A DNA stretch of 64,000 nt from a virus. The DNA lies in the IMG/VR virus record IMGVR_UViG_3300017917_002918, positions 64,001-128,000 of that record; one strand, written 5' to 3'. Below the pieces are notes generated by a model. It was not told where the DNA came from and made no database searches. It saw only the letters and a list, made by a program, of their open reading frames with translations. A program made the position numbers and the translations under genes. Positions 31,320 through 53,874 of the stretch are shown piece by piece. Within the stretch, counting starts at the first letter, position 1; the number at the start of each line of letters is the position of its first letter.

Positions 31320-31431
31320 GAGAGTAGAAGGGATTCGAACCCTCACTATATGCACCTTACCCTACTAACCACCTGTGCATATCGCCCGTGCAGACCCACG
31401 CAACTGCTTTTACCATTTAGCAACTACTCTC
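31320..31431 (-). ncRNA. Atypical tRNA-like RNA (112 nt)
   Basis: Acceptor stem GAGAGTAG/CTACTCTC, D arm GCT-AAATGGTAAA-AGC, T arm GAGGG-TTCGAAT-CCCTT. Anticodon arm is non-canonical, the extra arm is 35 nt, and no CCA is encoded. It has its own promoter. Confidence 0.7.
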
Positions 31432-31517: not shown

Positions 31518-31814
31518 TCAACCATAGATTGCATTAAATTCACTTTCCCATTGTTGACAGTTAGAAATACCACTACCTTTCACAAATATCTCTAATCCTG
31601 TTAAACCACATATAGTTTTGTCATGCAATATCATATTAATACATGTTGCACATGATTTTGTAGCTTCATTATAGAAACACTTTTCCTCATGCTTTTGTGC
31701 TTCTTTTTCTTTTGCATAAGATTTCTTACAAAAATCACATTTAAATCTAATGATTTGTTTCGGCATTATGAATCTCCTCTCTATTGTTGTATGTATCTCT
31801 GTACTCAGCACCAA
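31518..31814 (-). CDS. Cys-rich hypothetical protein
   Basis: FKCDFC..HE.KC..SCATC. Confidence 0.55.
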   Translation of the reverse strand: MVLSTEIHTTIERRFIMPKQIIRFKCDFCKKSYAKEKEAQKHEEKCFYNEATKSCATCINMILHDKTICGLTGLEIFVKGSGISNCQQWESEFNAIYG

Positions 31815-32331
31815 CCCATATTAAAAACGCAACCATTTTCCATCCATGTTGCTCAATATCTGTAACAAGTAGATCCACCAACTTCCATGTGTCAGGATGC
31901 ATTTTAAACTTATCTTTGTGCCTGTCCCAATATTTCTTAGGATCTGCGTTTGTCCATGGATCTTTATTATACGCTTGACCTGCTGCTTTCCAGTCACAAA
32001 TCAGCTCAATAACATCCCAATATGGCATTTTATGAACCATAATTTCACCACTAACTGGCTCATAATCTATCCAGTGCGTCCAATGGTGGGTATTTCTACC
32101 CTTATGATGCATCCATGCTTTAGAGTAACCATATTTTTCTTTTGCAACATCTACAGGACTCTTGCCTGCAACATAATTTGAAGCATACTCAATAAATTCA
32201 ACTGGATTAAGTTTTGACATATCATGCTTGATACCACGCCACGTTATACCACAGTCTCTACAAGCCAAGAATACATAATACTTATGTCTGCATATTGTCC
32301 AAAAGTGTTTAAAATAGTTTTTAATATTCAT
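31747..32331 (-). CDS. DUF5662-like HD-type metal-dependent hydrolase
   Basis: HK..V, HDMSK, AW.HH...N.HH, ELICDW.AA. Confidence 0.72.
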   Translation of the reverse strand: MNIKNYFKHFWTICRHKYYVFLACRDCGITWRGIKHDMSKLNPVEFIEYASNYVAGKSPVDVAKEKYGYSKAWMHHKGRNTHHWTHWIDYEPVSGEIMVHKMPYWDVIELICDWKAAGQAYNKDPWTNADPKKYWDRHKDKFKMHPDTWKLVDLLVTDIEQHGWKMVAFLIWVGAEYRDTYNNREEIHNAETNH

Positions 32332-32353: not shown

Positions 32354-33277
32354 TTAATGTGCTAATTTATCGGCTTCATGTAAAATCATTAATTGATTAT
32401 AGAAATTTTGACCCATCAAATTAATAATTCTTTCTTTGCTCTTGTAAGAATCACAATTATACGGTCGCATATGCCATCTAATTAGTTGACAAATATATAA
32501 CAAGTCCTTTGTACTACAACGATTTTGCAAATAAAACAAAGCCATATAAGCAGATATTTGTTCGTGATTATAATAGTGAGCCATACTTGTTGTTTCACCT
32601 TTTTGATTCTTGAATTGCTTCACAAAAGCCTTTCCTGCATCATGTAGCAATCCTGCTATAGCTAAGTCACAATCATCTGTCATTAGTTGAACATGTCCTG
32701 AACATCGCAAGCAATGCTCACCAATGGTATATTGATGATTGATATTATCTTGATTGACACTGTTCAAGCCATTAACACCATTAAACAGCTCATGTAACGC
32801 ATTAATATTATATTGTTTCGTATTATTATAAATTATCTCTATTTCATCATAGCCCTCGAAGTAGGCAGGCACATCGAAGTTTAAATACATACGTTTAATA
32901 ACTTCTTCTGGTACAACTCGTTCTCTTTCCTTGTTTTGCTCCAAACATTGTTCATAGGGAGTTGCAAGTAAAAGGCAAATTTTATCACAAGGTACTTTCT
33001 TTAGCTCATACAACAATGCCATGCGTTTTTTATAGCTTACATTTGTTGCGTCCATGATTACGTTCTTTCCACTTATTAAATCGTTTTTGACTCTTTTATG
33101 TAACTCTGCAAATATATCTTTATTGGCTGATTGGTCATTTATATTATTTAATAATTCAACTCTTAAATCATCTGAGCTATGAATAGTTGCACTATAGTCA
33201 AGATCTAATTCTTTTGCCCATACTGACTTACCGCTTGCGGGCAGTCCTACTAGAAGGAAAAATTTATTATTCATCAT
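32354..33277 (-). CDS. Polynucleotide kinase (AAA_33 P-loop) fused to HD phosphohydrolase (RNA end-healing)
   Basis: LVGLPASGKS, DATN, R.R.VP; C-terminal H...LLHDAGK..H..HE..HM..AD; start trimmed to MMNNK. Confidence 0.87.
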   Translation of the reverse strand: MMNNKFFLLVGLPASGKSVWAKELDLDYSATIHSSDDLRVELLNNINDQSANKDIFAELHKRVKNDLISGKNVIMDATNVSYKKRMALLYELKKVPCDKICLLLATPYEQCLEQNKERERVVPEEVIKRMYLNFDVPAYFEGYDEIEIIYNNTKQYNINALHELFNGVNGLNSVNQDNINHQYTIGEHCLRCSGHVQLMTDDCDLAIAGLLHDAGKAFVKQFKNQKGETTSMAHYYNHEQISAYMALFYLQNRCSTKDLLYICQLIRWHMRPYNCDSYKSKERIINLMGQNFYNQLMILHEADKLAH

Positions 33278-34595
33278 CTTCACCCACGCTCTCTGCTTCT
33301 TCCATATCAAGAACATCAGATGTTTTAATAATTCCTTCCAAAATTTTAAACGACACGTTTTTGTGTTTATATGCCTCAAATTTATTAGAATTTTCTTTAC
33401 GAATACAAACTCCCTCCCTAACGTGTACTTTTCCTATAGGATCTGGACCATCAGAAAACTTATCAACCCTCTCTTCTAAGTCTTCAATAGATGTAAAGAA
33501 AAACTTATCTAATACTGGTACGCATTTAACTGCCATTTGCTCACATCTTGCTTTAATTTGCTCTGTAGAGTACTCAAATACCACACCATCTTCATTTGTC
33601 ATCGTCATCCTATAAACATAAATATCATTTTGTCCTTGCTCACAACCATATGTAAATCTTGTAGTATTCCCGTATTGTTTTATAAATTCTTTATCCTTAG
33701 TTTTAGAGTTTTGACACTCTGGCATTATAAGTTGATTAACATTTACCCATGCAACTATCTCATAATAAATCGTCTCGCCTTTATGTAACTTACCAACGAA
33801 GTAATCGTGCCATTTCTTCCTGAATTCAGCACTACCATAGAACCCACCATCAAAGTTTTTCAATACTACTCTTCTTGATCCTGATACATACTTCCAAGTT
33901 TTTGTTGGCTTTGATTCAAGTTTTAAAAATTTCAATGTCCTATATAACCAATATGGTAATATACGCTTCTTTTCTTCAATCGAACGGGATGTGCGGGCAC
34001 TCGTGCCATGGCATTTGAGGGTTATGTATAATAAATCTCCTTGCTTAAATTGATGCTTATTATATGCAAATTGTTGAGTATCAACATGTTCTGCAAACAG
34101 TGGATAAGATGTAGGCTCTATACTTTTCGTTCTACCAGAATTACCACTATTATTTTCACCACTTCTATTTCTTCTTGGAATGTATTTTTCACAAATAACA
34201 ATTCCATTTAATACCGATATTGCATCCCCTTCTTTTAATTTACTTACATCTGTAAATGTTGATAAACTGTCAATTGACATAAACAAACCATCACTTATTT
34301 CCCCACGTAGTTTTAATGTTGATATATGACGTTTGTCTTCATCGAGATAGCCATACAAATGATTGCCATTTTCATCTTTAGTTCTGATTAACTTATTTTC
34401 TTTTGCAAACTCTAATCCAACTTTTGAATCCGTTGGAAAATAAATACCTAATTCACCTTCATAAACATCTAATCCAACAATAACTGAATTACTAAAGCAA
34501 CTACCAACCATTAATCTATCAGCGTTGATATGCCTTCTTAAATCTTTAATTCTTGTTACATATGCAACTACACTCACTTCAACCATACCTTTCAT
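33267..34595 (-). CDS. ATP-dependent RNA ligase, DRB0094/Rnl5-like, with N-terminal OB-like domain
   Basis: HINADRL...LRGEISDGL N-terminal domain; motif I TLKCHGTS, YYEI, REGVCIR, YKHK. Confidence 0.85.
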   Translation of the reverse strand: MKGMVEVSVVAYVTRIKDLRRHINADRLMVGSCFSNSVIVGLDVYEGELGIYFPTDSKVGLEFAKENKLIRTKDENGNHLYGYLDEDKRHISTLKLRGEISDGLFMSIDSLSTFTDVSKLKEGDAISVLNGIVICEKYIPRRNRSGENNSGNSGRTKSIEPTSYPLFAEHVDTQQFAYNKHQFKQGDLLYITLKCHGTSARTSRSIEEKKRILPYWLYRTLKFLKLESKPTKTWKYVSGSRRVVLKNFDGGFYGSAEFRKKWHDYFVGKLHKGETIYYEIVAWVNVNQLIMPECQNSKTKDKEFIKQYGNTTRFTYGCEQGQNDIYVYRMTMTNEDGVVFEYSTEQIKARCEQMAVKCVPVLDKFFFTSIEDLEERVDKFSDGPDPIGKVHVREGVCIRKENSNKFEAYKHKNVSFKILEGIIKTSDVLDMEEAESVGEDDE

Positions 34596-34604
34596 TATTA
34601 TAAT

Positions 34605-35039
34605 TTAAATTATAGAATTACCTTTGTTAAAATTACATATTGTACACATAGTTTGATAATTGTCTACAATACATTTACCACCTTTACTCTTAGGTAGAAT
34701 ATGATCCTTAGTCATTAAGACTTCTTCACCACTTTTATCTTTTGCATATAGATTTAAATGGTACTTGTTTGTTTTTGATATTGCGTCTTTTTCCAATGCA
34801 AAATATTCGCCCTGTATCCCACATGTTACACATTTATAACCCTTGGTGAAAAATGTCTTATATCTATCACTAAGAGCATTTATTTTTTCACCCATTATTA
34901 TTGTTGTAAGCTTAGTGTTTTGCTTGGACTGATTTAAATTTGAACAAACCAAATTCTTTAATGTGTCTTCTACATGCTTAATATCTACTGTACACTTTCT
35001 TACATAAGGCTGTAACTTGATTCCAATGTCCTTGTTCAT
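34605..35039 (-). CDS. HNH endonuclease
   Basis: CVTC...TKDHILPKSKGG...NYQTMCTICN..KGN. Confidence 0.85.
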   Translation of the reverse strand: MNKDIGIKLQPYVRKCTVDIKHVEDTLKNLVCSNLNQSKQNTKLTTIIMGEKINALSDRYKTFFTKGYKCVTCGIQGEYFALEKDAISKTNKYHLNLYAKDKSGEEVLMTKDHILPKSKGGKCIVDNYQTMCTICNFNKGNSII

Positions 35040-35094
35040 TTTAATACCACCTTACATCATCATAAATTAAATATTTACACACCGAATTAAAAAA

Positions 35095-35532
35095 TTATTC
35101 GGCAAATTTACTTTTACTAAACAATACCCATTTATTATTTTCCTCATCAACTAAAACTTCATAATGCCCGTACATATTAGCTTCTTTAACTTTATATATA
35201 GCACCTTTTCTCAAAAACGCTTTACATTTATCATCGTTTATACATTTTTTCGACATTATAGTAACTTTATCGACTTTTTTAAAGGTGTTATCTCTATTCC
35301 AACTATTACCACCGAAGTCTCGCCAATCGCAATCGTCACAATAATAACATGACATAATTAATGGCGTGGAATTTGTGGTTGTGGTGAACTCTGAAACATT
35401 GATTTTACCATCAACTTCAACAGAATAATGCCTTCTTACAGACACAAGTGTTTGTTCACTAAATACTATATTTTTGCTGTCGCATTCAGGACAACGCTTG
35501 TACCATCTTAACTTTGTAATATCGTAACTCAT
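35095..35532 (-). CDS. Zn-ribbon hypothetical protein
   Basis: CPEC and CDDC motifs. Confidence 0.55.
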   Translation of the reverse strand: MSYDITKLRWYKRCPECDSKNIVFSEQTLVSVRRHYSVEVDGKINVSEFTTTTNSTPLIMSCYYCDDCDWRDFGGNSWNRDNTFKKVDKVTIMSKKCINDDKCKAFLRKGAIYKVKEANMYGHYEVLVDEENNKWVLFSKSKFAE

Positions 35533-35564
35533 TTAATCACTCTTTCTTATACATGATTAGTTAA

Positions 35565-36914
35565 TTATATCACAGGTTTTAACTCATCTTCAGCAATTTT
35601 AATTAGCCTTTCCCTATCGTTTAATTCTGGTGACTCTATGACCATATCAACTAAAACATTTATTAATCTTCCTACAATTTTACCCTCCTTGAATCCCAAT
35701 TTAATCAAATCACTACCATTTATGGCTAAATCTTTTTTACTAAAACATTGATTGTCTGCTATTATTTCATTTAACAAAACTTCAATCTGCACCAAATTAT
35801 CCTTCTTTCTGTCATAGGCTAATTGACTCTGTGCTATCATATCAGCATATTTAAATTTCAGTAAGTCTCTAAAGTTTTCTTCACCAATTTTATTCAACCA
35901 CTTCTTAATACTTCTCTTATTAACTGAAATTTCAGCATCGTGATGAAGAACCAAGTTCCTAACTTTCATTATAATGTGATTGTCGTATCTTAATCTCCTT
36001 AATATTTCAACTGCCATATCAGAGCCAACAATAGGATGATTGTAAAAATGATCAATTCCGTATTCATCGGTAGTCTTGCACAGTGGTTTTGCTATATCAT
36101 GCAATAATGCTGTGAGTCTCAAATGTAACGTAGGCTCAATAGCAATTACAGATTTGATAATGTGATCAAATACATCGTGGTTGTGATATGGATTGTTTTG
36201 TTGAACATTGATAGTTGTATTTAATTCTGGGAGAATATACTTTAATATATTTGACATTTCCAAAAGTCCAAACCCATAGCTTACATTGTTACTTAATAAT
36301 ATTTGATTTAACTCACTCATGATACGTTCTTTAGAGACAACCATAATTTTATCTGCATTTTTATAAATAGCGTCCAACGTGTTTTCGTCAATTATAAACC
36401 CAAACCTCGAAGCAAATCTAACTGCTCGCATCATCCTCAATGCATCTTCGCTAAATCTTTCGTTTGCATTTCCAACACATCTAATCACGTTGTTAATTAA
36501 ATCCATACGACCACCAAATGGATCAAACAAGCCTTCTGTAAAGTTAAATGCCATAGCTCCAATTGTGAAATCCCTTCTGCTCAAATCCTCAACTAAATCA
36601 TCTGTAAAAGTGACTTCATCTGGATGCCTATTGTCGCTATATTTCCCTTCTTTCCTGAATGTTGTAATTTCATAGCCGATACCATCTGCCATTACTGTTA
36701 CAGTACCATGATCAATTCCTGTTGGAATAACATTATGATCTCTAAATACATTCATAACCTGTTCTGGTAACGCATTTGTAGTTATGTCCCAATCCTTTGG
36801 TGTTATGCCCAATATCATATCTCTTACACATCCACCGACTACAAAAGCTCTAAATCCTTTGTGTTGTAACGTATCTATTATATACTGTACTTGATTTGGC
36901 ATATACATACTCAC
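35565..36914 (-). CDS. cca: CCA tRNA nucleotidyltransferase with HD domain
   Basis: VGGCVRD, DWDITT, EITTFR, EDLSRRDFT, RFSEDALRMMRA, LLHDIAKP. Confidence 0.93.
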   Translation of the reverse strand: MSMYMPNQVQYIIDTLQHKGFRAFVVGGCVRDMILGITPKDWDITTNALPEQVMNVFRDHNVIPTGIDHGTVTVMADGIGYEITTFRKEGKYSDNRHPDEVTFTDDLVEDLSRRDFTIGAMAFNFTEGLFDPFGGRMDLINNVIRCVGNANERFSEDALRMMRAVRFASRFGFIIDENTLDAIYKNADKIMVVSKERIMSELNQILLSNNVSYGFGLLEMSNILKYILPELNTTINVQQNNPYHNHDVFDHIIKSVIAIEPTLHLRLTALLHDIAKPLCKTTDEYGIDHFYNHPIVGSDMAVEILRRLRYDNHIIMKVRNLVLHHDAEISVNKRSIKKWLNKIGEENFRDLLKFKYADMIAQSQLAYDRKKDNLVQIEVLLNEIIADNQCFSKKDLAINGSDLIKLGFKEGKIVGRLINVLVDMVIESPELNDRERLIKIAEDELKPVI

Positions 36915-36915
36915 T

Positions 36916-37683
36916 TCACCACCTCTCTGTTAATGCTCGTTTATTTAGATCTATCAACCATTCATTTATTTTATTATAGTCAGGATTTTTTGGAATTACA
37001 TTACTATTATCATATAGTTCATTTAATTCCTTGTCTAAATCGTCAATAATAACCAATATTTGCTCAAGTGTGTATTTACCATTTCTAATTGCTATTAATT
37101 CATCTCTATTAGGTCTAAATGTTGAAAACGTACCAGTTTTTAGTATTTCTATTGCAGAAGTTAACAATCTAACAGAATGTGCTCCAAATTTTACATCATA
37201 ACCATATGTTTCTACTAAGTCACACCTACCTGTTCCATTGCTACTTTTTGTTTTGAGTTTCTGTATTTGTGAATGAGCATAACCACCCATTTTGTGTTTT
37301 ATTACTTTAGATAAAAAATCTTGTCTGTGACTTATTAATTCCTTTCCAAATTGGTTGATTTCAATGATATGTTCCTCATTAACAAACAGTATCTCAATAT
37401 TATTAGGAACTCCTTGCATTGCATCATTTACAAATTTATTGATATGCATTATAGAAACGTCTACATCATCCTTGGTGTTTTTATAGTTCTTACCACCAGT
37501 GTTGTTATATTCATTAAATGTCTTTAATCCAAAGAAATACTCTTCAGGAGGAATACAAACGCCCTTATAATCTATATCGCTACCATCTATGTTTGTACCA
37601 TATGCATGTGAACCTGTGGTTGTAAGTAATATTAATCTATCACTTATCCAAGGCTGTGAATCTTTTGATATTTTAAAAGTCAT
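36916..37683 (-). CDS. Pol-beta superfamily nucleotidyltransferase (YcgL/Nuc-transf-like)
   Basis: GSHAYGTN..GSDIDYKG; PN.IE.LF; YD.K...H.VRL. Confidence 0.85.
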   Translation of the reverse strand: MTFKISKDSQPWISDRLILLTTTGSHAYGTNIDGSDIDYKGVCIPPEEYFFGLKTFNEYNNTGGKNYKNTKDDVDVSIMHINKFVNDAMQGVPNNIEILFVNEEHIIEINQFGKELISHRQDFLSKVIKHKMGGYAHSQIQKLKTKSSNGTGRCDLVETYGYDVKFGAHSVRLLTSAIEILKTGTFSTFRPNRDELIAIRNGKYTLEQILVIIDDLDKELNELYDNSNVIPKNPDYNKINEWLIDLNKRALTERW

Positions 37684-37789
37684 GTTTTATCACCTCATTT
37701 TATAATTTTATATCCCTACTATTAATTATAAACTATTTACATTAAAAGTCAATACATTATCATAAATTAATTACGAAACCACAAAAAAT

Positions 37790-37819
37790 AAAGACTTAGT
37801 GTAATCTACTAAGTCTTTA
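37790..37819 (-). terminator. Terminator after the TROVE gene
   Basis: AAAGACTTAGT...ACTAAGTCTTT hairpin with T-run on the minus strand. Confidence 0.65.
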
Positions 37820-37840
37820 CTGGAGGTGAACCATGAACGA

Positions 37841-39316
37841 TTATTTGAAATAGTAGCCTTCAATTTCTTGAATTAAACTATTTGAACCCTTTTCCACTAA
37901 ATCTATATATTCTAAAGTCTTTTCTGACCATCCAGAAATTATATTAACATTTTTACCCATGAATTGTTGTGTACCATAACCTTGTAAATCAATAGCATGA
38001 ACCCAAACGTCAGGATTTACTTCTTGCCTATACCGATCAACCAATGCTTGACATTGTACAGATCTACTATTACGCCAAAACGAATTTGTCTGAACCCAAC
38101 CACTATTGATTTCATTGTCTGAGAAAATAATAATTCTATCTACAAACATCTTGTTATCTAATGCCCATTTAATTGGTAGTGTTATGTCAGTTCCTCCACC
38201 GTTAACATTAATACTTTTGGCATTTGAAATTATACCGTTTGATGACGCTAGGTTGCATTGATAAAGCTTTGTGTCAAATGCAGTAGTGAACGTATCTTCA
38301 CATATATAATTTGCCATAGACATCATTAATGTTGCAATATCTGAACAAAGTACATCACTTTTTGCACTAATTCCACTATTCATTGAACCCGATACATCGG
38401 CACTCAACAATGTTTTGCCTTGAAGTTTATTTATATTTCTTGTGCTGATTTTAATTGCTTTTTCCAATGTATCGATTACTTTAGAACTTACCAACCCTTC
38501 ACTTGTCAATGCTTTATATGCTGAATAATATCTAAATGGCAACAACTTATTCTTTAACACCTTTTCTTCATCACCAAGAAACTCATATACCTTATCAATA
38601 TTACTTGCTCCTGATTTGATTATATTTCTTAAGTTCCTAATCATTGCCATATAACCGAGTTTATTATCGTTTATTAATTGTTCCCAAACTTCCTTAGTGT
38701 TGCCTTTTGCTGATAACTCTGTTTCCCAAGTCACAGGTGTTTTTAATCTATCTTCCAATAACCTTTTGAACATGTCACTTTGTTCATTTGTTTTAGGCTT
38801 CGGATGTACTAAACACAATATATCTCTAAGTTTAACCGCTTTATTCTTTCCATTATATTTTTGTAAACTATATTCATTAAACCTAAGAAATGAATCTGCC
38901 AACCCCTTTTTCATTGAGTTTGGAATAGGTTTGTTATACTTATTTATATAATATGATAGAATCTCGCTCATATCATCTACACGCTCAACCACTTTACCAA
39001 TAGTTTTTCTTGCAAATGGTTTACCTTGAATACTTTTAGCTAATTCAGCAGTAAGTACATGTGATATTGAACGTAAGTGAAACTCGTTTCTTGCGAATAA
39101 TGCTAAATTAGCAATAAACTTTGGATCATATTCGAGAATACTTTGAATCGTATTTATAATTTCATTATCATTATTGCCATAAAATTTGTTTTCACCAAAA
39201 AATGTAGTGAGAACCTGTGTAACTAACTTTTCCTTTTCATCCATCTTGAATGCTACAACACCAGATTTATTGACAGTTTTATTGACATTCTGTGTTGACG
39301 TATTAAATTTTGACAT
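37841..39316 (-). CDS. Ro60/Rsr TROVE-vWA RNA-binding protein
   Basis: FY...ALFAR..HLRS, KY, HPKP, TWETELS, YMA.IRNLRN, LPFRY, DVSGSM (MIDAS), GGTD, SDNE; start trimmed to MSKFN (RBS AGAGG). Confidence 0.93.
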   Translation of the reverse strand: MSKFNTSTQNVNKTVNKSGVVAFKMDEKEKLVTQVLTTFFGENKFYGNNDNEIINTIQSILEYDPKFIANLALFARNEFHLRSISHVLTAELAKSIQGKPFARKTIGKVVERVDDMSEILSYYINKYNKPIPNSMKKGLADSFLRFNEYSLQKYNGKNKAVKLRDILCLVHPKPKTNEQSDMFKRLLEDRLKTPVTWETELSAKGNTKEVWEQLINDNKLGYMAMIRNLRNIIKSGASNIDKVYEFLGDEEKVLKNKLLPFRYYSAYKALTSEGLVSSKVIDTLEKAIKISTRNINKLQGKTLLSADVSGSMNSGISAKSDVLCSDIATLMMSMANYICEDTFTTAFDTKLYQCNLASSNGIISNAKSINVNGGGTDITLPIKWALDNKMFVDRIIIFSDNEINSGWVQTNSFWRNSRSVQCQALVDRYRQEVNPDVWVHAIDLQGYGTQQFMGKNVNIISGWSEKTLEYIDLVEKGSNSLIQEIEGYYFK

Positions 39317-39341
39317 AATTAATTCCTCTTTTCTTATTAAA

Positions 39342-39419
39342 TTTTTATTCCAAAGGAAAGCCAAGTTGCTATTTTTTCGCCTATGAAGTAAGCAACTTGA
39401 GCACTGTTGGAATTTAAAA
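39342..39419 (-). ncRNA. Y-RNA-like element 5 (minimal scaffold only)
   Basis: ATTCCAA-CAGTGC-TCAAGTTGCT-TACTTCA...AGCAACTTG-GCTTTCCT-TTGGAAT; same scaffold as its neighbours. Confidence 0.65.
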
Positions 39420-39424
39420 CAATA

Positions 39425-39564
39425 TAATAATATGGGGAAATTCGAAGAAATTCTGTAGTGTGACTCATGGAGATCCACACAATAATACTTAGCCAATAGG
39501 TTAAAGTATCCACATAATAATCTTTTTATCTGAAGAAATTTTCTTCTTCACCACCATAGTATTA
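39425..39564 (-). ncRNA. Y-RNA-like element 4 (two-hairpin, non-tRNA effector domain)
   Basis: Terminal stem TAATACTATGG/CCATATTATTA, GGTG, GAAGAAA/TTTCTTC stem, TTCTTCA motif, two internal hairpins. Confidence 0.6.
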
Positions 39565-39573
39565 ACAAAATTG

Positions 39574-39712
39574 TCAAGGGAAGAAAATCTGATTGAGATA
39601 TTATCGTGCGCTACCACTGCGCCACACACTGTATTAACATACAGCATGACAGGATTCGAACCTGTGACCCCGTCATCCAAATTGAAGTAGCCCAATCATC
39701 ACTTTCCCTTGA
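39574..39712 (-). ncRNA. YrlA-like Y RNA 3 (circularly permuted tRNA module)
   Basis: Terminal stem TCAAGGGAA/TTCCCTTGA; T arm ACAGG-TTCGAAT-CCTGT precedes a loop-closed acceptor stem and D arm GCGC-AGTGGTA-GCGC. Confidence 0.82.
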
Positions 39713-39719
39713 TTATATA

Positions 39720-39866
39720 TAACAATTGTTAAAAGAAAATCACAAAGTCCATTTGTTCCGATTGCTCTCCCAACTGAGCTATATAGATTTAACTATAGAT
39801 GGACTCGAACCATCGACACATTGGTTTCTTGAAGGATTACTTTGCTGTACTGCTTAACAATTGTTA
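39720..39866 (-). ncRNA. YrlA-like Y RNA 2
   Basis: Terminal stem TAACAATTGTTAA; T arm GATGG-TTCGAGT-CCATC, closed acceptor TATAG/CTATA, D arm GCTC-AGTTGGGA-GAGC. Confidence 0.82.
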
Positions 39867-39876
39867 AATATCAATG

Positions 39877-40029
39877 TGTTAAATCAAGAAAAGAAAATCT
39901 AGCCAAGAGGTTTCGTACTCTGCCAATTGAGCTATATACCATATTAATATGATATAGTGGGACTTGAACCCACAACCCCGTCATTAAAAGTGAAGTATCT
40001 TGTCTATTGCACTGCAACTTGATTTAACA
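39877..40029 (-). ncRNA. YrlA-like Y RNA 1
   Basis: Terminal stem TGTTAAATCAAG/CTTGATTTAACA; T arm GTGGG-TTCAAGT-CCCAC, closed acceptor, D arm GCTC-AATTGGCA-GAGT. Confidence 0.82.
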
Positions 40030-40053
40030 AGGTTTAATCAACCTTATATATTT

Positions 40054-40082
40054 ATCATACCACACATTAAATCAAATGTCAA
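40054..40082 (-). promoter_or_regulatory. SigA-type promoter of the Y-RNA/Ro60 operon
   Basis: TTGACA-17bp-TATGAT with extended TG; operator-like motif at 40097-40111. Confidence 0.75.
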
Positions 40083-40160
40083 TAGTTTTGAACAAATTTA
40101 TAATTTAATTACATCCAATAACAAAACCGCCAAAACTCAGCGGTTTACTCATTCCCTAAA

Positions 40161-40454
40161 CTAATTTAACTCAACATCTGCACATAATGTTATAGTATCA
40201 CCATTATCCATGTCAAACTTAATATAACCCCATCCAATTTCAAACTCCACTATTCTGTGCTTAAATATACGGTAACTAACAAATGCTTGTCCTTTTTCAG
40301 AAAAATCATAAACGTAATCTCCGCAATGTAATTCAAGATCTTCAAATATCATTGTAATATTGCAATCTACATCTTTCTTTTCCAATGTAACTACCTTGCC
40401 ATGTATAGTACTCAAAATATTTTCGATACTTGCGACACTAGAAGAATAATCCAT
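40161..40454 (-). CDS. Hypothetical protein
   Basis: ORF with RBS AAGGAG. Confidence 0.55.
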   Translation of the reverse strand: MDYSSSVASIENILSTIHGKVVTLEKKDVDCNITMIFEDLELHCGDYVYDFSEKGQAFVSYRIFKHRIVEFEIGWGYIKFDMDNGDTITLCADVELN

Positions 40455-44640: not shown

Positions 44641-45153
44641 TTACTCGCAATCTTCCCAACTTTTACTAAATTCATTATTTGCAAACGCCTCTTTAAGACC
44701 TGTAATTTGTTTGAGTCTAAGTATTTCATCGAGATCCATACCTAGATGTTTTGCTATCCATTCATCACTTCTACCTATGTTGTGTATTTCTGCAACTATA
44801 TTACTCATTAAATCTACATCATGCGATCCTCTTGCTCTATTATGTCTTATAGTTGAAGCCATTCTTTCTTCCAAAGGTTTATCTATTATTGAAACAGGAA
44901 GCATACCATTTTCTCTATCATATATATCCTTATGTTTTAACATTATTGTATATCTATGAAATCCATCTACTATAACATATTTATCAATTTCTTTATCATA
45001 ATAACAAACAATAGGCATTGTATATCCATCTTCCTTAATACTCAAATATAATAGCTTCATTTCAGGTGGCGCAACTGAATTGGGATTATATTCATTTGAT
45101 ATAATTTTGTCAATTGGAACTGAAATAATATTATAAACTGGACTTTTAAACAT
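44641..45153 (-). CDS. ibrB: IbrB-like ParB/Srx-fold protein
   Basis: NEYNPNSVAPPEMKLL.LSI.EDGYTMPIV...IVDGFHR...ASTIRHNRARG. Confidence 0.85.
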   Translation of the reverse strand: MFKSPVYNIISVPIDKIISNEYNPNSVAPPEMKLLYLSIKEDGYTMPIVCYYDKEIDKYVIVDGFHRYTIMLKHKDIYDRENGMLPVSIIDKPLEERMASTIRHNRARGSHDVDLMSNIVAEIHNIGRSDEWIAKHLGMDLDEILRLKQITGLKEAFANNEFSKSWEDCE

Positions 45154-45166
45154 AATAAATCCTCCC

Positions 45167-46477
45167 TTAAATATTTTTATATTTTTCCTTTATTACTTTT
45201 ACTTTCTCTTGTTGTTGTTTGGTTAAACCGAACCCCATAAATTTACACATATGATCATTTTTCAAAATACAGAAACACATTCTTTTCCATGATGGAATAT
45301 CAATTGTAGATTTTACATCATCCGTATCATCTGGTATTTCCCCGTCAAAGATTATTCTTGTTTTTCCATCCTTACTATAATTTGAAATTCCATTTTTACG
45401 AATCCTGTATCCACATTGTTCTATTTCATCTATAACATCTTGAGAGAAACCTCCTCCCGTTTTTTCCCAAAACTCAGCTGAAGTTTTAAACTTATCTAAA
45501 TAGTTATTCCTAACATGCGCTGGAAGTGTACTTAATAAAAATTCCGTATAAGATTTCCACGTGTGACCTGCTGGTAAAGAAATTTGCCTATATCCTAAAG
45601 CTTTTGTTCCTCCATATATAGCTCCAAAATTCGCCCCTTTAACTCTTCCTACTAATTTCGCCCATGTTCTTGGTTCTATTATTCTGTAAAGATTGAGACT
45701 ATCTATTGCCCATTCGTTAAATGGAGATGCAACTCTCATTTTATCTATTGTTACACCTGCTTTGTAATATAAATCATATAATTTATTATAATCAAAATCA
45801 AATTTACCATTTGCAATCCATATATCTTCAACAGTCCAATCATAAAGGGGAGAAGCACTCCATACATTTTTGTGACCTTCTGTTATATATTTTTTACCTT
45901 TATAATCGTATTTTTTATTTATAATACCACTATAACGATGAAGTGACTCATCTGCTCGTATTCCTATAAGCCCAATTGTCTTACCACCACCATTTTTGTT
46001 TTTATACCATCTCCCAAATTGTTTATATAAATCTTCCTGATGCATTTTTAAGGTATAAAAATCAAATGGATTATTATTTAAATTTATAACATACGAATGA
46101 GTAGGCATATCTCGTACCCATATATCTTTTTTCTCTTCATCCCAAGGATACCAAAACATTTCATAATTACTTAGAGGCGTTTTAGAAGCCATGGGTAAAC
46201 ATACCCAATATGGTTCAACTTCATCATGTAATCGCTCGAATGTTCTTGTTACATATTCAGTTGTTTTTTCGTATTGTGCTTCAAAATCCTGATGAAATAA
46301 ACCTATTTTTTTAGTTATTCCATTTTCTTTTTTATATTTCATTACTAAATTAAGTAAAGTACCGCTATCTTTGCCACCAGAAAAAGAAATATAAATATTA
46401 TCAAATTCTTCAAATATAAATTTTAGTCTTTCCTGTAACGCTTCATATACACTTATATTTTTATATATCTTCTGCAA
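45167..46477 (-). CDS. ibrA: IbrA-like PAPS-reductase/PP-loop protein (DUF3440)
   Basis: SFSGGKDS, DFEAQY, GIRADES..R, PLYDW...DIW, PSWKRMC..ILKND. Confidence 0.87.
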   Translation of the reverse strand: MQKIYKNISVYEALQERLKFIFEEFDNIYISFSGGKDSGTLLNLVMKYKKENGITKKIGLFHQDFEAQYEKTTEYVTRTFERLHDEVEPYWVCLPMASKTPLSNYEMFWYPWDEEKKDIWVRDMPTHSYVINLNNNPFDFYTLKMHQEDLYKQFGRWYKNKNGGGKTIGLIGIRADESLHRYSGIINKKYDYKGKKYITEGHKNVWSASPLYDWTVEDIWIANGKFDFDYNKLYDLYYKAGVTIDKMRVASPFNEWAIDSLNLYRIIEPRTWAKLVGRVKGANFGAIYGGTKALGYRQISLPAGHTWKSYTEFLLSTLPAHVRNNYLDKFKTSAEFWEKTGGGFSQDVIDEIEQCGYRIRKNGISNYSKDGKTRIIFDGEIPDDTDDVKSTIDIPSWKRMCFCILKNDHMCKFMGFGLTKQQQEKVKVIKEKYKNI

Positions 46478-46479
46478 TT

Positions 46480-47865
46480 TTATCCCTCCGCTCCATCAAT
46501 CCATTTATACAAATCTTTTTTATCCTTCATTTGTTCGATCAACTCTTTAAAACTATCAACAAGTCTTTCTTTTCTATTCAAACATTTTATAATTCTTTCA
46601 TCTAATGTAAATTTAGCACAAATATCAGTTATATAAACATCTAGATTTTGTCCAATCCTATGCACTCTATCTTCAGACTGTATTCTAGTTGCATAATCCC
46701 AATCATTAGAGTAGTATATAATATTGTTACAAAATTGTAAATTTAAACCATAACCTGCACAAGTTTTATTTGCTATAAAAAACTGAGCTTTATTTTCGAA
46801 CTTTTCTAATGATCGTTGCCTTTGTTTTTTACTTATTTCACCATAAAACTCAACTACAGAATCATTACCATATTTATTAAATAATACTTCACTAATTATT
46901 TTTATTTCTGAAGTATATTTGCACCAAATTATTGTTTTTTCATCATCTAAAATATCTAAAAGTTTAATTATTCTGGGATTCTCCAATGGATTTTTAAAAA
47001 ATGGCTCTATTTTTATAGACTCGGTATTTTTTGAAATAATCTTATTCCCACTAATAACATGTTGACAAGCTGTAAATAGTCTATATATGGTTGATGGTTT
47101 TAATTCGTCTAGTAACATTAAAAATTCATTTTTGACATCCTCATAATGTTTTTCTTGCTCATCTGTAAGATGAAAATATTTTTGATTATATATTTTTTTA
47201 GGTAAGTTAAGACACTCTTCCTTTTTAACTTGATATGTGTATGGTGCAATTTTTCGCACTAAATAATCTGTATTTAAAGTCCTTGTAATTCGACCTTTAA
47301 TTCTTTCATCATATTCAAGATGATTAGCTGCGAAACTCCAGAATGACTTGTATCCAAGAATTCTCCAATCTAATATGTACCATTGAGCAAAAAGATCTTT
47401 TTCACACTTTGAAATTGGAGTTCCGTTTAAAATAAGTTTATAACTACAATATTCAGCAAGCCTTTCAATATTCATTGTGCGTTGTGCTCTGTGATTTTTA
47501 ACCAAATTACTTTCATCAACAATTAAATAAACTTTCTTAGATTGTACTAATTTTAATAATTCAAAATTTAAATTAATACTTGAAGATAAACTTTCGATAC
47601 CTTCAATTCTAAAGTATTCTATTCCATTTTCAATATGTTTTTCAAGTTCTTTCTTTATAGTGCTTTTAACAGAACATGGACAAAGCCACAATACTGCTTC
47701 TACTTTTTCAGCATCAATACGTTGTTTGATTAACTCTAAAGTTGTTCTTGTTTTACCAGTACCCATTTCCATATATAATGCACCAATTTTAATTTTTGAT
47801 AATTTTGTTACCGCTGCAAGTTGATGATGTTGCAATTTAGTCTTTAAGATCATCAAGAATATCAT
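46480..47865 (-). CDS. SNF2-family helicase/ATPase
   Basis: MEMGTGKT, VDES, LNGTP, GYGLNLQ, QSEDRVHRIGQ. Confidence 0.9.
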   Translation of the reverse strand: MIFLMILKTKLQHHQLAAVTKLSKIKIGALYMEMGTGKTRTTLELIKQRIDAEKVEAVLWLCPCSVKSTIKKELEKHIENGIEYFRIEGIESLSSSINLNFELLKLVQSKKVYLIVDESNLVKNHRAQRTMNIERLAEYCSYKLILNGTPISKCEKDLFAQWYILDWRILGYKSFWSFAANHLEYDERIKGRITRTLNTDYLVRKIAPYTYQVKKEECLNLPKKIYNQKYFHLTDEQEKHYEDVKNEFLMLLDELKPSTIYRLFTACQHVISGNKIISKNTESIKIEPFFKNPLENPRIIKLLDILDDEKTIIWCKYTSEIKIISEVLFNKYGNDSVVEFYGEISKKQRQRSLEKFENKAQFFIANKTCAGYGLNLQFCNNIIYYSNDWDYATRIQSEDRVHRIGQNLDVYITDICAKFTLDERIIKCLNRKERLVDSFKELIEQMKDKKDLYKWIDGAEG

Positions 47866-52534: not shown

Positions 52535-52701
52535 CCGTTACAGAAAACTTATAAAAAGTTATAAAAACAACCAAAACATTATAACTTTAATGTTTCTTTC
52601 CTTGTTCATCATGTTCTTTTTCACATTATCGCTAATGCTACTAGAGTTTGTTTAACACTCCAAAGGCTTAATCTCCCCACTAACGTATGGGTACATTATA
52701 T
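52535..52701 (-). ncRNA. Putative TnpB omegaRNA scaffold (IS right end)
   Basis: Non-coding ~165 nt between the tnpB stop and the right end, the standard omegaRNA position. Confidence 0.55.
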
Positions 52702-53874
52702 TTACGCTATTTTATATTCATTATAATCTCTTAAATTTAATGAAGCATTATGGTCTCTGTCATGAATTACTCCACAAGAAGGACATATCCATTCTCTATC
52801 ATTTAAATTTAATGCCTTATTTATATATCCACAATCATGACAAGTTTTAGAACTTGGATACCATCGACTCACAACTCTAACTTCAGTGTTATTCCATTTG
52901 CTCTTGTATTGCAATTGTAGTCTAAACTCATATAATGATTGTTGTTGTATTGCTTTTGATAAGTGCTTGTTCTTCATCATACCTTTGATATTCAAGTCTT
53001 CAATTACAATAAAGCTTGGTTTTCGCTTTATTATTTCAGAAGTTACTTGATGATTATAGTTATTCCTAGTTCCATTTAATTTATGTTGTACAGTTTTGAT
53101 TTTTTTTTCAAGTTTAATTATATTTTTAGTTTTTACAAACTTTACACCATCTTTGTTTTCTTCATATTTTCTTGACACTTGACGTTGTAATCTTTTCTTT
53201 TGTTTTTCAAGTTTTCTAATCTTATCAGATTTATTTATATTTTTATAAGTTATATTATCTGAGCATATAGCAAGATCTTTAATTCCAACATCAATACCAA
53301 TTCCATCATTTTGAGGTGTTTCAAGATTATCAGGGAATTCAACACCAACACTTATGAACCAATGTAAACCATCGTGAGATACTCTAGGATTTACATATTT
53401 AACATCTTTCCCGAAAGGAATTCTATTATGTTCAGCTAATCTTACCCAGTTTAATTTCTGCTTGTTTTTCTTGGAACTTTTAGCAAATCCTTCGAATTTA
53501 ACATGTGTAGCGTTAAACTGTATTTTTATATTGTCTTGATAAAATTTGGGTGGAGATTTCTTACGACTTTTAAATTTAGGGAATTTTGCTAATCCTTTAA
53601 AGAATTTTTGATATGCAATACAGGCATCTTTAATTGCTTGTTTTGATACATTATTAGAAGTATCGTTTAGCCACTTAAATTCTTCGATTTTCTTCAATTG
53701 TGTGAACTCTTTTCTTAAATCATTGTCACTTATAAATTTACCACCATTATCATAATTCTCTTTTTCTCTTGCCAGTGCCCAATTATAAGCGAATCTCTTG
53801 ACTCCTGCGTTTTGAAACATTAGTGTATTTTGCTTGTTATTAGGTACTAGCATTACTTTCATTCCCTTTATCAT
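52702..53874 (-). CDS. tnpB: RNA-guided endonuclease TnpB
   Basis: HTH N-terminus; RuvC GIDVG / IEDL / DRDHNA intact; CHDC..CPSC zinc finger. Confidence 0.95.
   Translation of the reverse strand: MIKGMKVMLVPNNKQNTLMFQNAGVKRFAYNWALAREKENYDNGGKFISDNDLRKEFTQLKKIEEFKWLNDTSNNVSKQAIKDACIAYQKFFKGLAKFPKFKSRKKSPPKFYQDNIKIQFNATHVKFEGFAKSSKKNKQKLNWVRLAEHNRIPFGKDVKYVNPRVSHDGLHWFISVGVEFPDNLETPQNDGIGIDVGIKDLAICSDNITYKNINKSDKIRKLEKQKKRLQRQVSRKYEENKDGVKFVKTKNIIKLEKKIKTVQHKLNGTRNNYNHQVTSEIIKRKPSFIVIEDLNIKGMMKNKHLSKAIQQQSLYEFRLQLQYKSKWNNTEVRVVSRWYPSSKTCHDCGYINKALNLNDREWICPSCGVIHDRDHNASLNLRDYNEYKIA

What the first reader, a model, noticed from the sequence alone, without database searches (positions are those of the whole stretch)
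39342..40082. Tandem array of five Y-RNA-like ncRNAs with a shared non-canonical scaffold, upstream of a phage Ro60
Seen: five self-closing hairpin units lie head-to-tail between one SigA promoter (40054-40082) and the TROVE gene. All share: terminal stem - RGTR - ~9-bp stem - T(A/C/T)CTTCA - [variable domain] - stem - GATTTTCT-like pyrimidine tract - terminal stem. The variable domain is a circularly permuted tRNA module (T arm, loop-closed acceptor stem, D arm) in three units, a two-hairpin domain in one, and nearly nothing in one. Knowledge: bacterial YrlA RNAs have this permuted tRNA mimicry and lie next to rsr/Ro60 genes. Unusual here: five diversified copies in a phage, and no canonical GGUCCGA/UUGACC Ro-binding helix that I could find. 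Inference: a modular RNP system in which one Ro60 is loaded with interchangeable adaptor or decoy RNAs.
Basis: partly seen in the sequence, partly recalled or inferred. Interest (0 to 1): 0.85.

Follow-up and report, generated by a model that had tools for sequence, protein, structure and literature searches.

The report
Five Ro60-partner RNAs in a phage
A 167-kb phage, probably of Clostridium, transcribes five small structured RNAs in a row in front of its Ro60 gene; they belong to a widespread, poorly catalogued variant of the known bacterial Y RNAs (YrlA type), so this is a good new example of a known kind, not a new system.

Summary
On the minus strand, five self-closing units (40027-39346) lie between one consensus promoter (40082-40054) and a Ro60 gene (39316-37841). 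No promoter-like or terminator-like site lies between them.

All five share one "handle": terminal stem, RGYG, 7-10 bp stem, U(N)CUUC, apical module, return strand, U-rich tract, terminal stem. Three modules are permuted tRNA mimics (T arm, closed acceptor hairpin, D arm). One is a two-hairpin domain and one is a bare loop.

The handle is not peculiar to this phage. A covariance model of it hits 126 units beside Ro60 genes in Clostridia, Bacteroidota and cultured phages, all on the Ro60 strand. 92.7% of helix cells pair, against 55.7% in shuffles. Arrays of 3-13 units are common: Caulobacter phage CcrPW has 8, Xanthomonas phage Usaquen 5, and the nearest phage relative 5.

The architecture equals YrlA, but Rfam's YrlA model stays below threshold (37 bits against 69) and the GNCGAA motif is replaced by RGYG.

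Downstream lie genes for an RlaP nucleotidyltransferase, a CCA-adding enzyme, an RNA ligase and a kinase/HD protein. That makes this a tRNA-repair cluster.

Ro60 binding, processing and function are inferred, not shown. This scan has noted similar arrays on much other DNA.

The parts
40124..40146 (-). Terminator-like hairpin that ends the upstream gene (40454-40161)
   Evidence: 10-bp stem, then a T-rich tail.
40054..40082 (-). Sigma-A type promoter of the array and the Ro60 gene
   Evidence: TTGACA, 17 nt, TG-TATGAT, 11 of 12 positions. It is the only promoter-like site on this strand before the Ro60 ATG.
40028..40044 (-). Small 5' leader hairpin (AAGGTT-GATTA-AACCTT)
   Evidence: Read from the sequence. 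Role unknown.
39879..40027 (-). Unit 1, YrlA type: handle plus permuted tRNA-like module with a 7-bp closed acceptor stem and Levitt pair A15:U48
   Evidence: Rfam YrlA 27.0 bits over the tRNA-like part. Handle model R2 12.0 bits, E 0.018 in the 1.4-kb region. Fold. Levitt pair.
39720..39866 (-). Unit 2, YrlA type: AGUA and UCCUUC variants of the handle, short 5-bp acceptor hairpin, Levitt pair G15:C48. Both arms of the terminal stem are palindromic.
   Evidence: Rfam YrlA 37.4 bits, full length. Handle models give only 10.0 and 5.9 bits. Levitt pair.
39574..39712 (-). Unit 3, YrlA type: the best match to the family handle, 7-bp closed acceptor stem, Levitt pair G15:C48
   Evidence: Rfam YrlA 35.6 bits. 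R2 38.7 bits. Fold z-score -3.6.
39429..39560 (-). Unit 4: handle with GGUG(AA) and UUCUUC, and a two-hairpin apical module that is not tRNA-like
   Evidence: R1 16.2 bits and R2 16.5 bits, E about 1e-3 in the region. Fold. No Rfam family matches the module.
39346..39413 (-). Unit 5: bare handle, a hairpin whose 20-nt loop starts with UACUUCA
   Evidence: R2 46.4 bits. Fold z-score -4.0. It was a seed of R1.
37841..39316 (-). Ro60 (Rsr-like) gene, 491 aa, with its ribosome-binding site 8 nt upstream. The MIDAS D-x-S-x-S motif is conserved.
   Evidence: Pfam TROVE 3.9e-33 and vWA_Ro60 4.5e-15. PDB 9KOP/9L5Y 2e-36 over residues 16-481. Invariant D307, S309 and S311.
37787..37821 (-). Terminator-like hairpin after the Ro60 gene
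36916..37683 (-). RlaP-family nucleotidyltransferase, with its own promoter at 37752-37725
   Evidence: Pfam PF10127 1.9e-18. phrog_388 3e-70.
35565..36914 (-). CCA-adding enzyme with an HD domain
   Evidence: Pfam PolyA_pol and related domains. NCBIfam NF009814 290.7 bits against a cut-off of 290.
33267..34595 (-). Probable ATP-dependent RNA ligase
   Evidence: Pfam PHA02142 OB fold and RNA_ligase, both just under cut-off. TIGR02306 1.8e-11. A weak assignment.
32354..33379 (-). Polynucleotide-kinase-like P-loop kinase fused to an HD phosphohydrolase. The true start is probably downstream of 33379.
   Evidence: Pfam AAA_33, KTI12 and HD. Partial match to the kinase part of bacterial Pnkp.

Best explanation
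The stretch is a polycistronic array of five Ro60-partner noncoding RNAs, that is, bacterial-type Y RNAs. Three are YrlA-like tRNA mimics and two are not tRNA-like.

Proposed sequence of events:
1. The array is transcribed with the phage Ro60 mRNA from one early-type promoter.
2. Host RNases cut the precursor in the short AU-rich spacers.
3. Each RNA binds the phage Ro60 ring through the shared handle: the two closing helices plus the conserved single-stranded RGYG, UACUUC and U-rich elements.
4. Each apical module brings a different partner or substrate to the ring. For U1-U3 the likely partners are proteins that recognise the tRNA elbow.

The RNP most likely works with the RNA-repair enzymes encoded just downstream (RlaP, CCA-adding enzyme, RNA ligase, kinase/HD) and perhaps with host PNPase. 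Together they would survey, repair or degrade damaged tRNA and other structured RNA during infection.

What is shown and what is inferred:
- Shown: the anatomy, the conservation, the covariation and the link to Ro60.
- Inferred: processing, Ro60 binding, the partners and the biological role.
For: - Single promoter, no internal promoter or terminator, and a Ro60 ribosome-binding site 20 nt after U5.
- U1-U3 align to Rfam YrlA over the T arm, closed acceptor and D arm.
- The tertiary Levitt pair 15:48 is A:U or G:C in 16 of 16 tRNA-like units, with both states present inside this array.
- A handle model built from other phages picks the five units as the top five hits in the region. In the whole 167-kb genome it hits only this locus.
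- 126 of 126 handle hits in Ro60 loci, found through the protein alone, lie on the Ro60 strand.
- Helices: 92.7% paired against 55.7% shuffled; 705 cells with changes on both sides against 230; slid registers give 40-50%.
- TROVE genes lie within about 7.5 kb of the arrays in 4 of 4 complete IMG/VR genomes checked, and directly adjacent in three.
- The nearest phage relative, L004 (Ro60 49% identical), also has five units with a similar mix.
- The Ro60 is closest in sequence to phiLo Ro60, which binds two phage Y-like RNAs and forms a ternary complex with host PNPase in vitro (PMC12135203).
- In M. smegmatis two Y RNAs are cut from one precursor upstream of rsr (PMC4201824).
- A repair cluster lies downstream. 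Clostridium intestinale has the same handle RNAs between a 2H phosphoesterase and Ro60-RtcB.
Against: - No expression, processing or binding data exist for this uncultivated phage.
- Rfam YrlA scores (37.4, 35.6, 27.0) are far below the gathering score of 69.
- The published GNCGAAN0-1G motif is absent.
- U2's handle is not significant on its own, and those of U1 and U4 are only weakly so.
- The covariation alignments were fitted to the model.
- The invariance of UACUUC is partly favoured by how the seeds were collected and by model scoring. Even so, 118 of 126 units found through the protein carry exactly TACTTC.
- The link to the repair genes rests on adjacency. They have their own promoter, and a terminator separates them from Ro60.
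Confidence: 0.8

Rival explanations
1. Decoy panel. The three tRNA mimics, which lack an anticodon loop, serve mainly as competitive inhibitors or sponges for host tRNA-cleaving defence nucleases or other tRNA-binding factors. Ro60 serves chiefly to stabilise them.
For: - Three different tRNA-like modules with an intact elbow.
- A tRNA-repair cluster next door implies that tRNA damage matters to this phage.
- The same idea is published for Salmonella YrlA, which the anticodon nuclease does not cut (PMC7790460).
Against: - U4 and U5 carry no tRNA-like part yet keep the full handle.
- Hairpin-only units are common in the family.
- Anticodon nucleases usually read the anticodon loop, which these RNAs lack.
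- Nothing here separates this reading from the adaptor reading, and both could hold.
Confidence: 0.2
2. Cis-acting leader. The 730-nt structured region is only a 5' untranslated region that controls the stability or translation of the Ro60 mRNA, for example through autoregulation by Ro60, and gives no free RNAs.
For: It is co-transcribed with Ro60, and U5 ends 20 nt before the ribosome-binding site.
Against: - In Bacteroidota, crAss001, Atuin and L012 the same units lie downstream of Ro60 or among tRNA genes, where they cannot act as a leader.
- Homologous YrlA and YrlB are stable trans-acting RNAs (PMC4201824).
Confidence: 0.05
3. Decayed tRNA gene cluster. The T and D arms are remnants of tandem tRNA genes, and the shared motifs are leftovers without function.
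For: - Rfam tRNA gives sub-threshold hits (24.9 and 23.9 bits against a cut-off of 29) that join the D arm of one unit to the T arm of the next.
- Chen et al. warn that dimeric tRNAs can mimic YrlA.
- A dimeric-tRNA origin of YrlA has been proposed (10.1101/312249).
Against: - ARAGORN finds no tRNA in the window.
- Within each unit the order is T arm, closed acceptor, D arm, enclosed by two helices that covary across 126 units.
- The two tRNA-free units keep the handle.
- All family hits are strictly tied to Ro60 and to its strand.
Confidence: 0.03

Closest known systems
YrlA RNAs (Rfam RF02553; Chen et al. 2014, PMC4201824; structure in Wang et al. 2018, 10.1101/312249)
   Same: - Encoded next to Ro60 and on its strand.
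- 5'/3' closing stem, internal loop and second stem leading to a permuted tRNA-like domain (T arm, closed acceptor hairpin, D arm).
- Conserved UA(Y) after the second stem.
- Levitt-pair covariation.
- Found in phages as well as bacteria, with several Y RNAs per locus.
   Different: - Scores are only 27-37 bits against a gathering score of 69.
- The GNCGAAN0-1G motif is replaced by RGYG. U4's GGUGAA is one transition away from it.
- The 3' strand of the loop is a U-rich tract.
- UACUUC is nearly invariant.
- The handle model finds nothing in the Bxz1-type mycobacteriophage ScottMcG, whose YrlA-like hit scores 36 bits. So there are at least two handle classes.
YrlB / Yrn2-type hairpin Y RNAs (Salmonella, M. 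smegmatis, D. radiodurans; PMC4201824)
   Same: - A second, non-tRNA-like Y RNA encoded beside YrlA.
- In M. smegmatis it is cut from the same precursor upstream of rsr.
- U5, and loosely U4, fill this role.
   Different: [quoted passage not shown] U5 has a 20-nt loop that opens with UACUUCA and is A-rich. No sequence model of YrlB was available to test.
Thermus phage phiLo Ro60 with Yrl1 and Yrl2 (PMC12135203; PDB 9KOP, 9L5Y)
   Same: - The closest solved relative of this Ro60 (2e-36, full length).
- Phage-encoded Y-like RNAs beside the gene.
- Binding and PNPase recruitment shown in vitro.
   Different: - phiLo has two RNAs, defined by a CGAA motif and placed upstream.
- The handle model gives only two weak hits there, and they lie downstream (21.6 and 20.7 bits).
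- This phage has five RNAs with RGYG.
rsr-yrlBA-rtcBA RNA repair operons, and RlaP / CCA-adding / ligase sets of jumbo phages (PMC7790460; PMC7824862)
   Same: Ro60 and Y RNAs sit beside RNA end-healing and sealing enzymes. Clostridium intestinale has a 2H phosphoesterase, two handle RNAs, Ro60, RtcB and a WYL regulator in that order.
   Different: This phage has no RtcB or RtcA. It carries an ATP-dependent ligase-like gene, RlaP, a CCA-adding enzyme and a kinase/HD protein, transcribed separately from Ro60.

Membership tests
YrlA (Rfam RF02553 / Chen et al. 2014) | Encoded within 4 kb of a Ro60 ortholog and on the same strand | tested here: met
   The units end 30 nt before the Ro60 ATG, on the same strand.
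YrlA (Rfam RF02553 / Chen et al. 2014) | tRNA-like domain in permuted order: T stem-loop, closed acceptor-like stem-loop, D stem-loop | tested here: met
   Met for U1-U3 (cmscan alignments; covarying T, acceptor and D helices in 16 relatives). Not present in U4 or U5.
YrlA (Rfam RF02553 / Chen et al. 2014) | Levitt pair 15:48 kept by compensatory change | tested here: met
   A:U in U1 and G:C in U2 and U3. Compatible in 16 of 16 units of the family.
YrlA (Rfam RF02553 / Chen et al. 2014) | GNCGAAN0-1G motif near the 5' end (putative Ro60 contact) | tested here: not met
   No match in 40082-39317. RGYG sits at the equivalent place. U4 has GGTGAA. A GGCGAA lies in U5's loop, which is the wrong place and could be chance.
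YrlA (Rfam RF02553 / Chen et al. 2014) | Conserved YUAY after the second stem | tested here: inconclusive
   CUAC in U3 and UUAC in U5. AUAC in U1, AUCC in U2 and UUUC in U4 depart from it. The wider family has (Y)UACUUC.
YrlA (Rfam RF02553 / Chen et al. 2014) | Reaches Rfam's gathering score (69 bits) | tested here: not met
   37.4, 35.6 and 27.0 bits. Also no hit at the gathering score in 20 of the 80 related bacterial loci or in the 27 phage loci scanned.
YrlA (Rfam RF02553 / Chen et al. 2014) | Bound by Ro60; modified by TruB and DusA | not testable with these tools
   Needs pull-down and modification mapping.
Animal-type Y RNA (conserved bulged helix GGUCCGA / UUGACC) | The conserved helix in the 5'/3' stem | tested here: not met
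   Neither strand is present. The only one-mismatch hits are the T loops. No Y_RNA hit in Rfam at E up to 10.
Handle class defined here (models R1 and R2) | Two covarying helices around RGYG, UACUUC and a U-rich tract, beside Ro60 | tested here: met
   R2 scores: U5 46.4, U3 38.7, U4 16.5, U1 12.0, U2 5.9 bits. They are also the top five hits of R1. U2 is marginal. U3 and U5 were in the training set of R2.
tRNA (RF00005) | Cloverleaf in normal order with an anticodon arm, reaching the score threshold | tested here: not met
   ARAGORN finds none. The Rfam tRNA hits score 24.9, 23.9 and 14.5 bits against a cut-off of 29; the best one (24.9 bits) spans two units.

The most novel reading that the evidence does not exclude
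The RGYG / UACUUC / U-tract handle defines a large Ro60-partner RNA superfamily that is missing from RNA catalogues. In it one constant Ro60-docking module is combined with many different apical modules: several tRNA mimics, hairpins and other folds.

This phage would use a five-member panel to point a single Ro60 ring at several targets, as the recognition arm of a phage tRNA-repair pathway (RlaP, CCA-adding enzyme, ligase, kinase/HD) that defeats host tRNA-cleaving defences.
Probability: 0.3. Interest if true: 0.75.

Novelty: new variant of a known kind. Interest (0 to 1): 0.5.

Why it matters
Ro60 and Y RNAs are studied mainly in animals, in connection with lupus autoantigens, and in three bacteria. 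What the RNA's variable part recruits is still open.

Arrays like this one offer a natural experiment. One ring protein meets a set of RNAs that keep a constant docking handle and differ only in the effector module, and the whole set sits next to tRNA-repair enzymes in a phage.

The handle consensus found here is missed by Rfam's YrlA model at its threshold. Used as a search model, it would let Ro60-partner RNAs be annotated in Clostridia, Bacteroidota, crAss-like phages and jumbo phages.

It also gives clear mutational targets (RGYG, UACUUC, the U-tract) for mapping how bacterial-type Ro60 reads its RNAs.

For this window alone the result is a well-supported annotation, not a surprise.

Tried and rejected
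1. Rfam at gathering thresholds finds nothing in the array. Sub-threshold YrlA hits gave the first lead.
2. blastn of the array against 50,697 phage records gave no match. blastn-short of each unit against all fetched loci found only T-loop identities. The units are related by structure and short motifs, not by sequence.
3. A pattern scan of IMG/VR (CAGTG..TACTTC..GGTTCRAA) returned 119 stretches. My own estimate puts chance at roughly 200 hits, and only about a dozen loci proved real by model search. The raw count is therefore not evidence.
4. My ad hoc helix finder was noisy. Its extra candidate at 53682-53572 lies in a coding region next to a RAGATH-18 element and was dropped.
5. MAFFT misaligned the outer helices, so RNAalifold recovered only the tRNA-like arms. 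I bootstrapped a model from seven well-aligned hairpin units instead.
6. I could not settle whether RGYG corresponds to the GNCG core or to the trailing N-G of GNCGAAN0-1G. Spacing arguments point both ways.
7. Pairing of AGUG with UACU was considered and rejected. Both lie on the same strand at opposite ends of the second stem, and the Y position varies without compensation.
8. Two reviews on bacterial Y RNAs (PMC10870794, PMC6047535) and the supplementary tables of Chen et al. 2014 are not held. I could not check how many YrlA copies per phage were already listed.
9. Literature searches for descriptions of such arrays found none. The library is incomplete.
10. Earlier scan notes liken such handles to Dictyostelium Class I RNAs. 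I did not test this.
Full report
**The locus.** The window is bases 64001-128000 of a complete 167,401-bp IMG/VR virus record with direct terminal repeats. Everything relevant is on the minus strand.

- A terminator-like hairpin (40146-40124) ends the upstream gene.
- A near-consensus promoter follows: TTGACA, 17 nt, TG-TATGAT at 40082-40054.
- No other promoter-like or terminator-like site lies on that strand until a hairpin at 37821-37787.
- Between them lie a 730-nt region without a credible ORF and a 491-aa gene (39316-37841) with a GAGG ribosome-binding site.
- The protein is a true Ro60: Pfam TROVE 3.9e-33 and Ro60 vWA 4.5e-15. Its best solved relative is the Ro60 of Thermus phage phiLo (9KOP/9L5Y, 2e-36 over residues 16-481). 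The MIDAS residues are invariant among eight phage relatives.

**The five units.**

| Unit | Coordinates | Apical module |
|---|---|---|
| U1 | 40027-39879 | tRNA-like |
| U2 | 39866-39720 | tRNA-like |
| U3 | 39712-39574 | tRNA-like |
| U4 | 39560-39429 | two hairpins |
| U5 | 39413-39346 | 20-nt loop |

- They are separated by AU-rich spacers of 7-17 nt and preceded by a small leader hairpin.
- Each folds alone into a closed structure: terminal stem, internal loop, second stem, apical part.
RGTR lies 10-13 nt before TNCTTC in every unit. That composite motif occurs 11 times in 128 kb of both strands, five of them here at a spacing of 147-162 nt, against 0.035 expected.
- A U-rich tract (GATTTTCT in U1-U3, GAATTTCC in U4, CTTTCCTT in U5) lies between the return strand of the second stem and the terminal stem.

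**The apical parts.**
- U1-U3 align to Rfam YrlA across the T arm, a closed acceptor-like hairpin and the D arm. Scores are 27.0, 37.4 and 35.6 bits, all below the gathering score of 69.
- In 16 such units from this and other phages, the T, acceptor and D helices covary.
- The tertiary Levitt pair 15:48 is A:U in eight units and G:C in eight, with no exception. U1 is A:U; U2 and U3 are G:C. This is the signature that Chen et al. 2014 (PMC4201824) and Wang et al. 2018 (10.1101/312249) describe for an L-shaped tRNA mimic.
- U4 carries two unrelated hairpins. U5 carries only a 20-nt loop.
- These are not tRNA genes. ARAGORN finds none. The sub-threshold Rfam tRNA hits join the D arm of one unit to the T arm of the next.

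**The handle in other genomes.**
- The nearest phage relative, L004 (Ro60 49% identical), has the same layout by eye. A promoter is followed by units that read ...CAGTG-stem-TACTTCG...stem-CTTTTTCT..., and then by Ro60.
- I built model R1 from seven hairpin-type units of seven phages, with the two helices specified.
- With filters off over 39000-40400, R1's top five hits are the five units. The next hit scores 6.7 bits.
- Model R2, built from 36 hits, finds only this locus in the whole phage genome.

**An independent sample.**
- I fetched 80 bacterial and MAG loci through Ro60 protein similarity alone. The closest are Clostridium species at 57-64% identity.
- R2 hits 126 units there at E up to 0.01, all on the Ro60 strand, in 58 of the 80 loci. 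They lie upstream of Ro60 in Clostridia and downstream in Bacteroidota.
- Units per locus: 1 in 22 loci, 2 in 15, 3 in 13, 4 in 5 and 5 in 3.
- 118 of the 126 carry exactly TACTTC.
- I then re-ran R2 at E up to 0.001 on the 58 of those loci with hits plus five cultured-phage loci, which again gave 126 units. In that alignment 92.7% of helix cells pair, against 55.7% in shuffles. 705 cells show changes on both sides, against 230. Slid registers fall to 40-50%.
- The alignment is fitted to the model, so these numbers lean its way. The margin is still large.

**Arrays are common.**

| Source | Units | Position |
|---|---|---|
| Caulobacter phage CcrPW | 8 | upstream of Ro60 |
| Xanthomonas phage Usaquen | 5 | upstream of Ro60 |
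| Rhizobium phage RHph_TM3_3_6 | 5-7 | upstream of Ro60 |
| Arthrobacter phage Atuin | 6 | among tRNA genes around Ro60 |
| crAss001 | 3-4 | downstream of its TROVE gene |
| L004 | 5 | upstream of Ro60 |
| L012 | 6 | downstream of Ro60 |
| L116 | 12-13 | upstream of Ro60 |

. In four of four complete IMG/VR genomes with such arrays a TROVE gene lies within about 7.5 kb; in three it is directly adjacent. Five units in a phage is therefore typical of large phages, and at the top of the range seen in bacteria.

**Relation to canonical YrlA.**
- The architecture is the same as in the Rfam consensus: closing stem, 5' loop, second stem, then CUA.
- The UAC of the handle matches the published conserved YUAY. 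Its UA makes a kink in the crystal structure (PMC4201824; 10.1101/312249).
- The differences are the 5' loop (consensus G-Y-R-G-Y-G-W instead of GNCGAAN0-1G), the U-rich 3' loop, and the near-invariant UACUUC.
- Rfam YrlA reaches its threshold in none of the 20 related bacterial loci or 27 phage loci scanned.
- Conversely, R2 finds nothing in the Bxz1-type mycobacteriophage ScottMcG or in Streptomyces phage Sushi23. ScottMcG has a 36-bit YrlA-like hit. So there are at least two handle classes.
- Intermediate forms suggest a continuum, not an unrelated invention: UGCGAAAG in the Rhizobium phage, GGCGUAAG in L060, GGUGAA in U4.
- The animal GGUCCGA/UUGACC helix is absent. Salmonella and Mycobacterium YrlA keep only the 5' strand motif, so the full helix is not expected here (PMC4201824).

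**Context and mechanism.** Downstream, on the same strand and under their own promoter, lie:
- an RlaP nucleotidyltransferase;
- a CCA-adding enzyme, at NCBIfam's equivalog cut-off;
- a 145-aa unknown protein;
- an HNH endonuclease;
- a ligase-like gene;
- a P-loop kinase fused to an HD domain.

This is the RNA end-healing and sealing set that Iyer et al. describe for jumbo phages (PMC7824862). In Clostridium intestinale two handle RNAs sit between a 2H phosphoesterase and Ro60-RtcB-WYL. That is the Clostridial counterpart of the Salmonella rsr-yrlBA-rtcBA operon (PMC7790460).

From established knowledge:
- Y RNAs are modular.
- The closing stem binds Ro60.
- The other end tethers an effector such as PNPase.
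- phiLo Ro60 binds two phage RNAs and recruits host PNPase in vitro (PMC12135203).

On that basis I infer that the five RNAs are cut from the common transcript, dock on the phage Ro60 through the handle, and give it several specificities. tRNA-binding repair enzymes are likely clients of U1-U3. None of this is shown. A decoy role for the tRNA mimics is a published alternative, and the data do not separate the two.

**Verdict.** The identification as Y-RNA-like partners of Ro60 is well supported. The claims that the array is unusual are not.

The family-level point is worth recording: a conserved handle class, missed by Rfam, carries interchangeable modules in arrays. I found no paper describing it in the library searched. 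This scan has already noted the same kind of array in many other genomes.

Noticed in passing
window 31320-31430 (-): A tRNA-like gene at the far end of the repair cluster. Rfam tRNA gives 40.4 bits over 111 nt, which implies an insertion of about 40 nt. Default ARAGORN misses it. With introns allowed it calls tRNA-Val(cac) with a 20-nt intron and a weak anticodon stem.
   Followed up: partly
window 32354-37683 (-): RNA-repair gene cluster: RlaP, CCA-adding enzyme, a 145-aa unknown, an HNH endonuclease, an RNA-ligase-like gene and a kinase+HD gene, followed by DUF5662 (31747-32331).
   Followed up: partly
window 52598-52666 (-) and about 53500-53800 (-): A RAGATH-18 RNA (58.5 bits) next to what reads like a TnpB-type ORF. 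This fits earlier scan notes of TnpB guide-RNA copies in this phage.
   Followed up: no
window 39381-39376 (-), loop of U5: GGCGAA, the core of the canonical YrlA GNCGAA motif, sits in the apical loop of the minimal unit and not in the handle. About 0.7 such hits are expected by chance in the array.
   Followed up: no
window 39854-39866 and 39720-39732 (-), U2 terminal stem: Both arms are the palindrome TTAACAATTGTTAA. Each could therefore fold on itself instead of closing the unit. U2 also has the most deviant handle (AGUA, UCCUUC).
   Followed up: no
L128 1265-2458 (Caulobacter phage CcrPW, MH588545.1): Eight tandem handle units fill the stretch upstream of the Ro60-like gp146c, which is annotated as almost empty. 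The small opposite-strand ORF gp147 (2303-2431) lies inside the array and is probably not a gene.
   Followed up: partly
L127 4016-4082 and 4206-4288 (Thermus phage phiLo, MH673673.1): Two weak handle hits (21.6 and 20.7 bits) lie downstream of the Ro60 gene and overlap the annotated hypothetical CDS phiLo_25. The published Yrl1 and Yrl2 are upstream. These may be further partner RNAs.
   Followed up: no
L131 4016-4735 (Bacteroides phage crAss001, MH675552.1): Three or four handle units (41.4, 22.9, 19.9 and 11.8 bits) lie in the unannotated 900-nt gap after the TROVE gene gp96.
   Followed up: partly
L116 1148-5200 (IMGVR_UViG_3300022173_000112): Twelve to thirteen handle units within 4 kb upstream of a TROVE gene in a complete 112-kb phage. 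This is the largest array seen here.
   Followed up: partly
window 44641-47865 (-): A ParB-like nuclease, a PAPS-reductase/DUF3440 protein and an SNF2-type helicase lie in a row. It may be a DNA-modification or anti-defence module and is unrelated to the finding.
   Followed up: no
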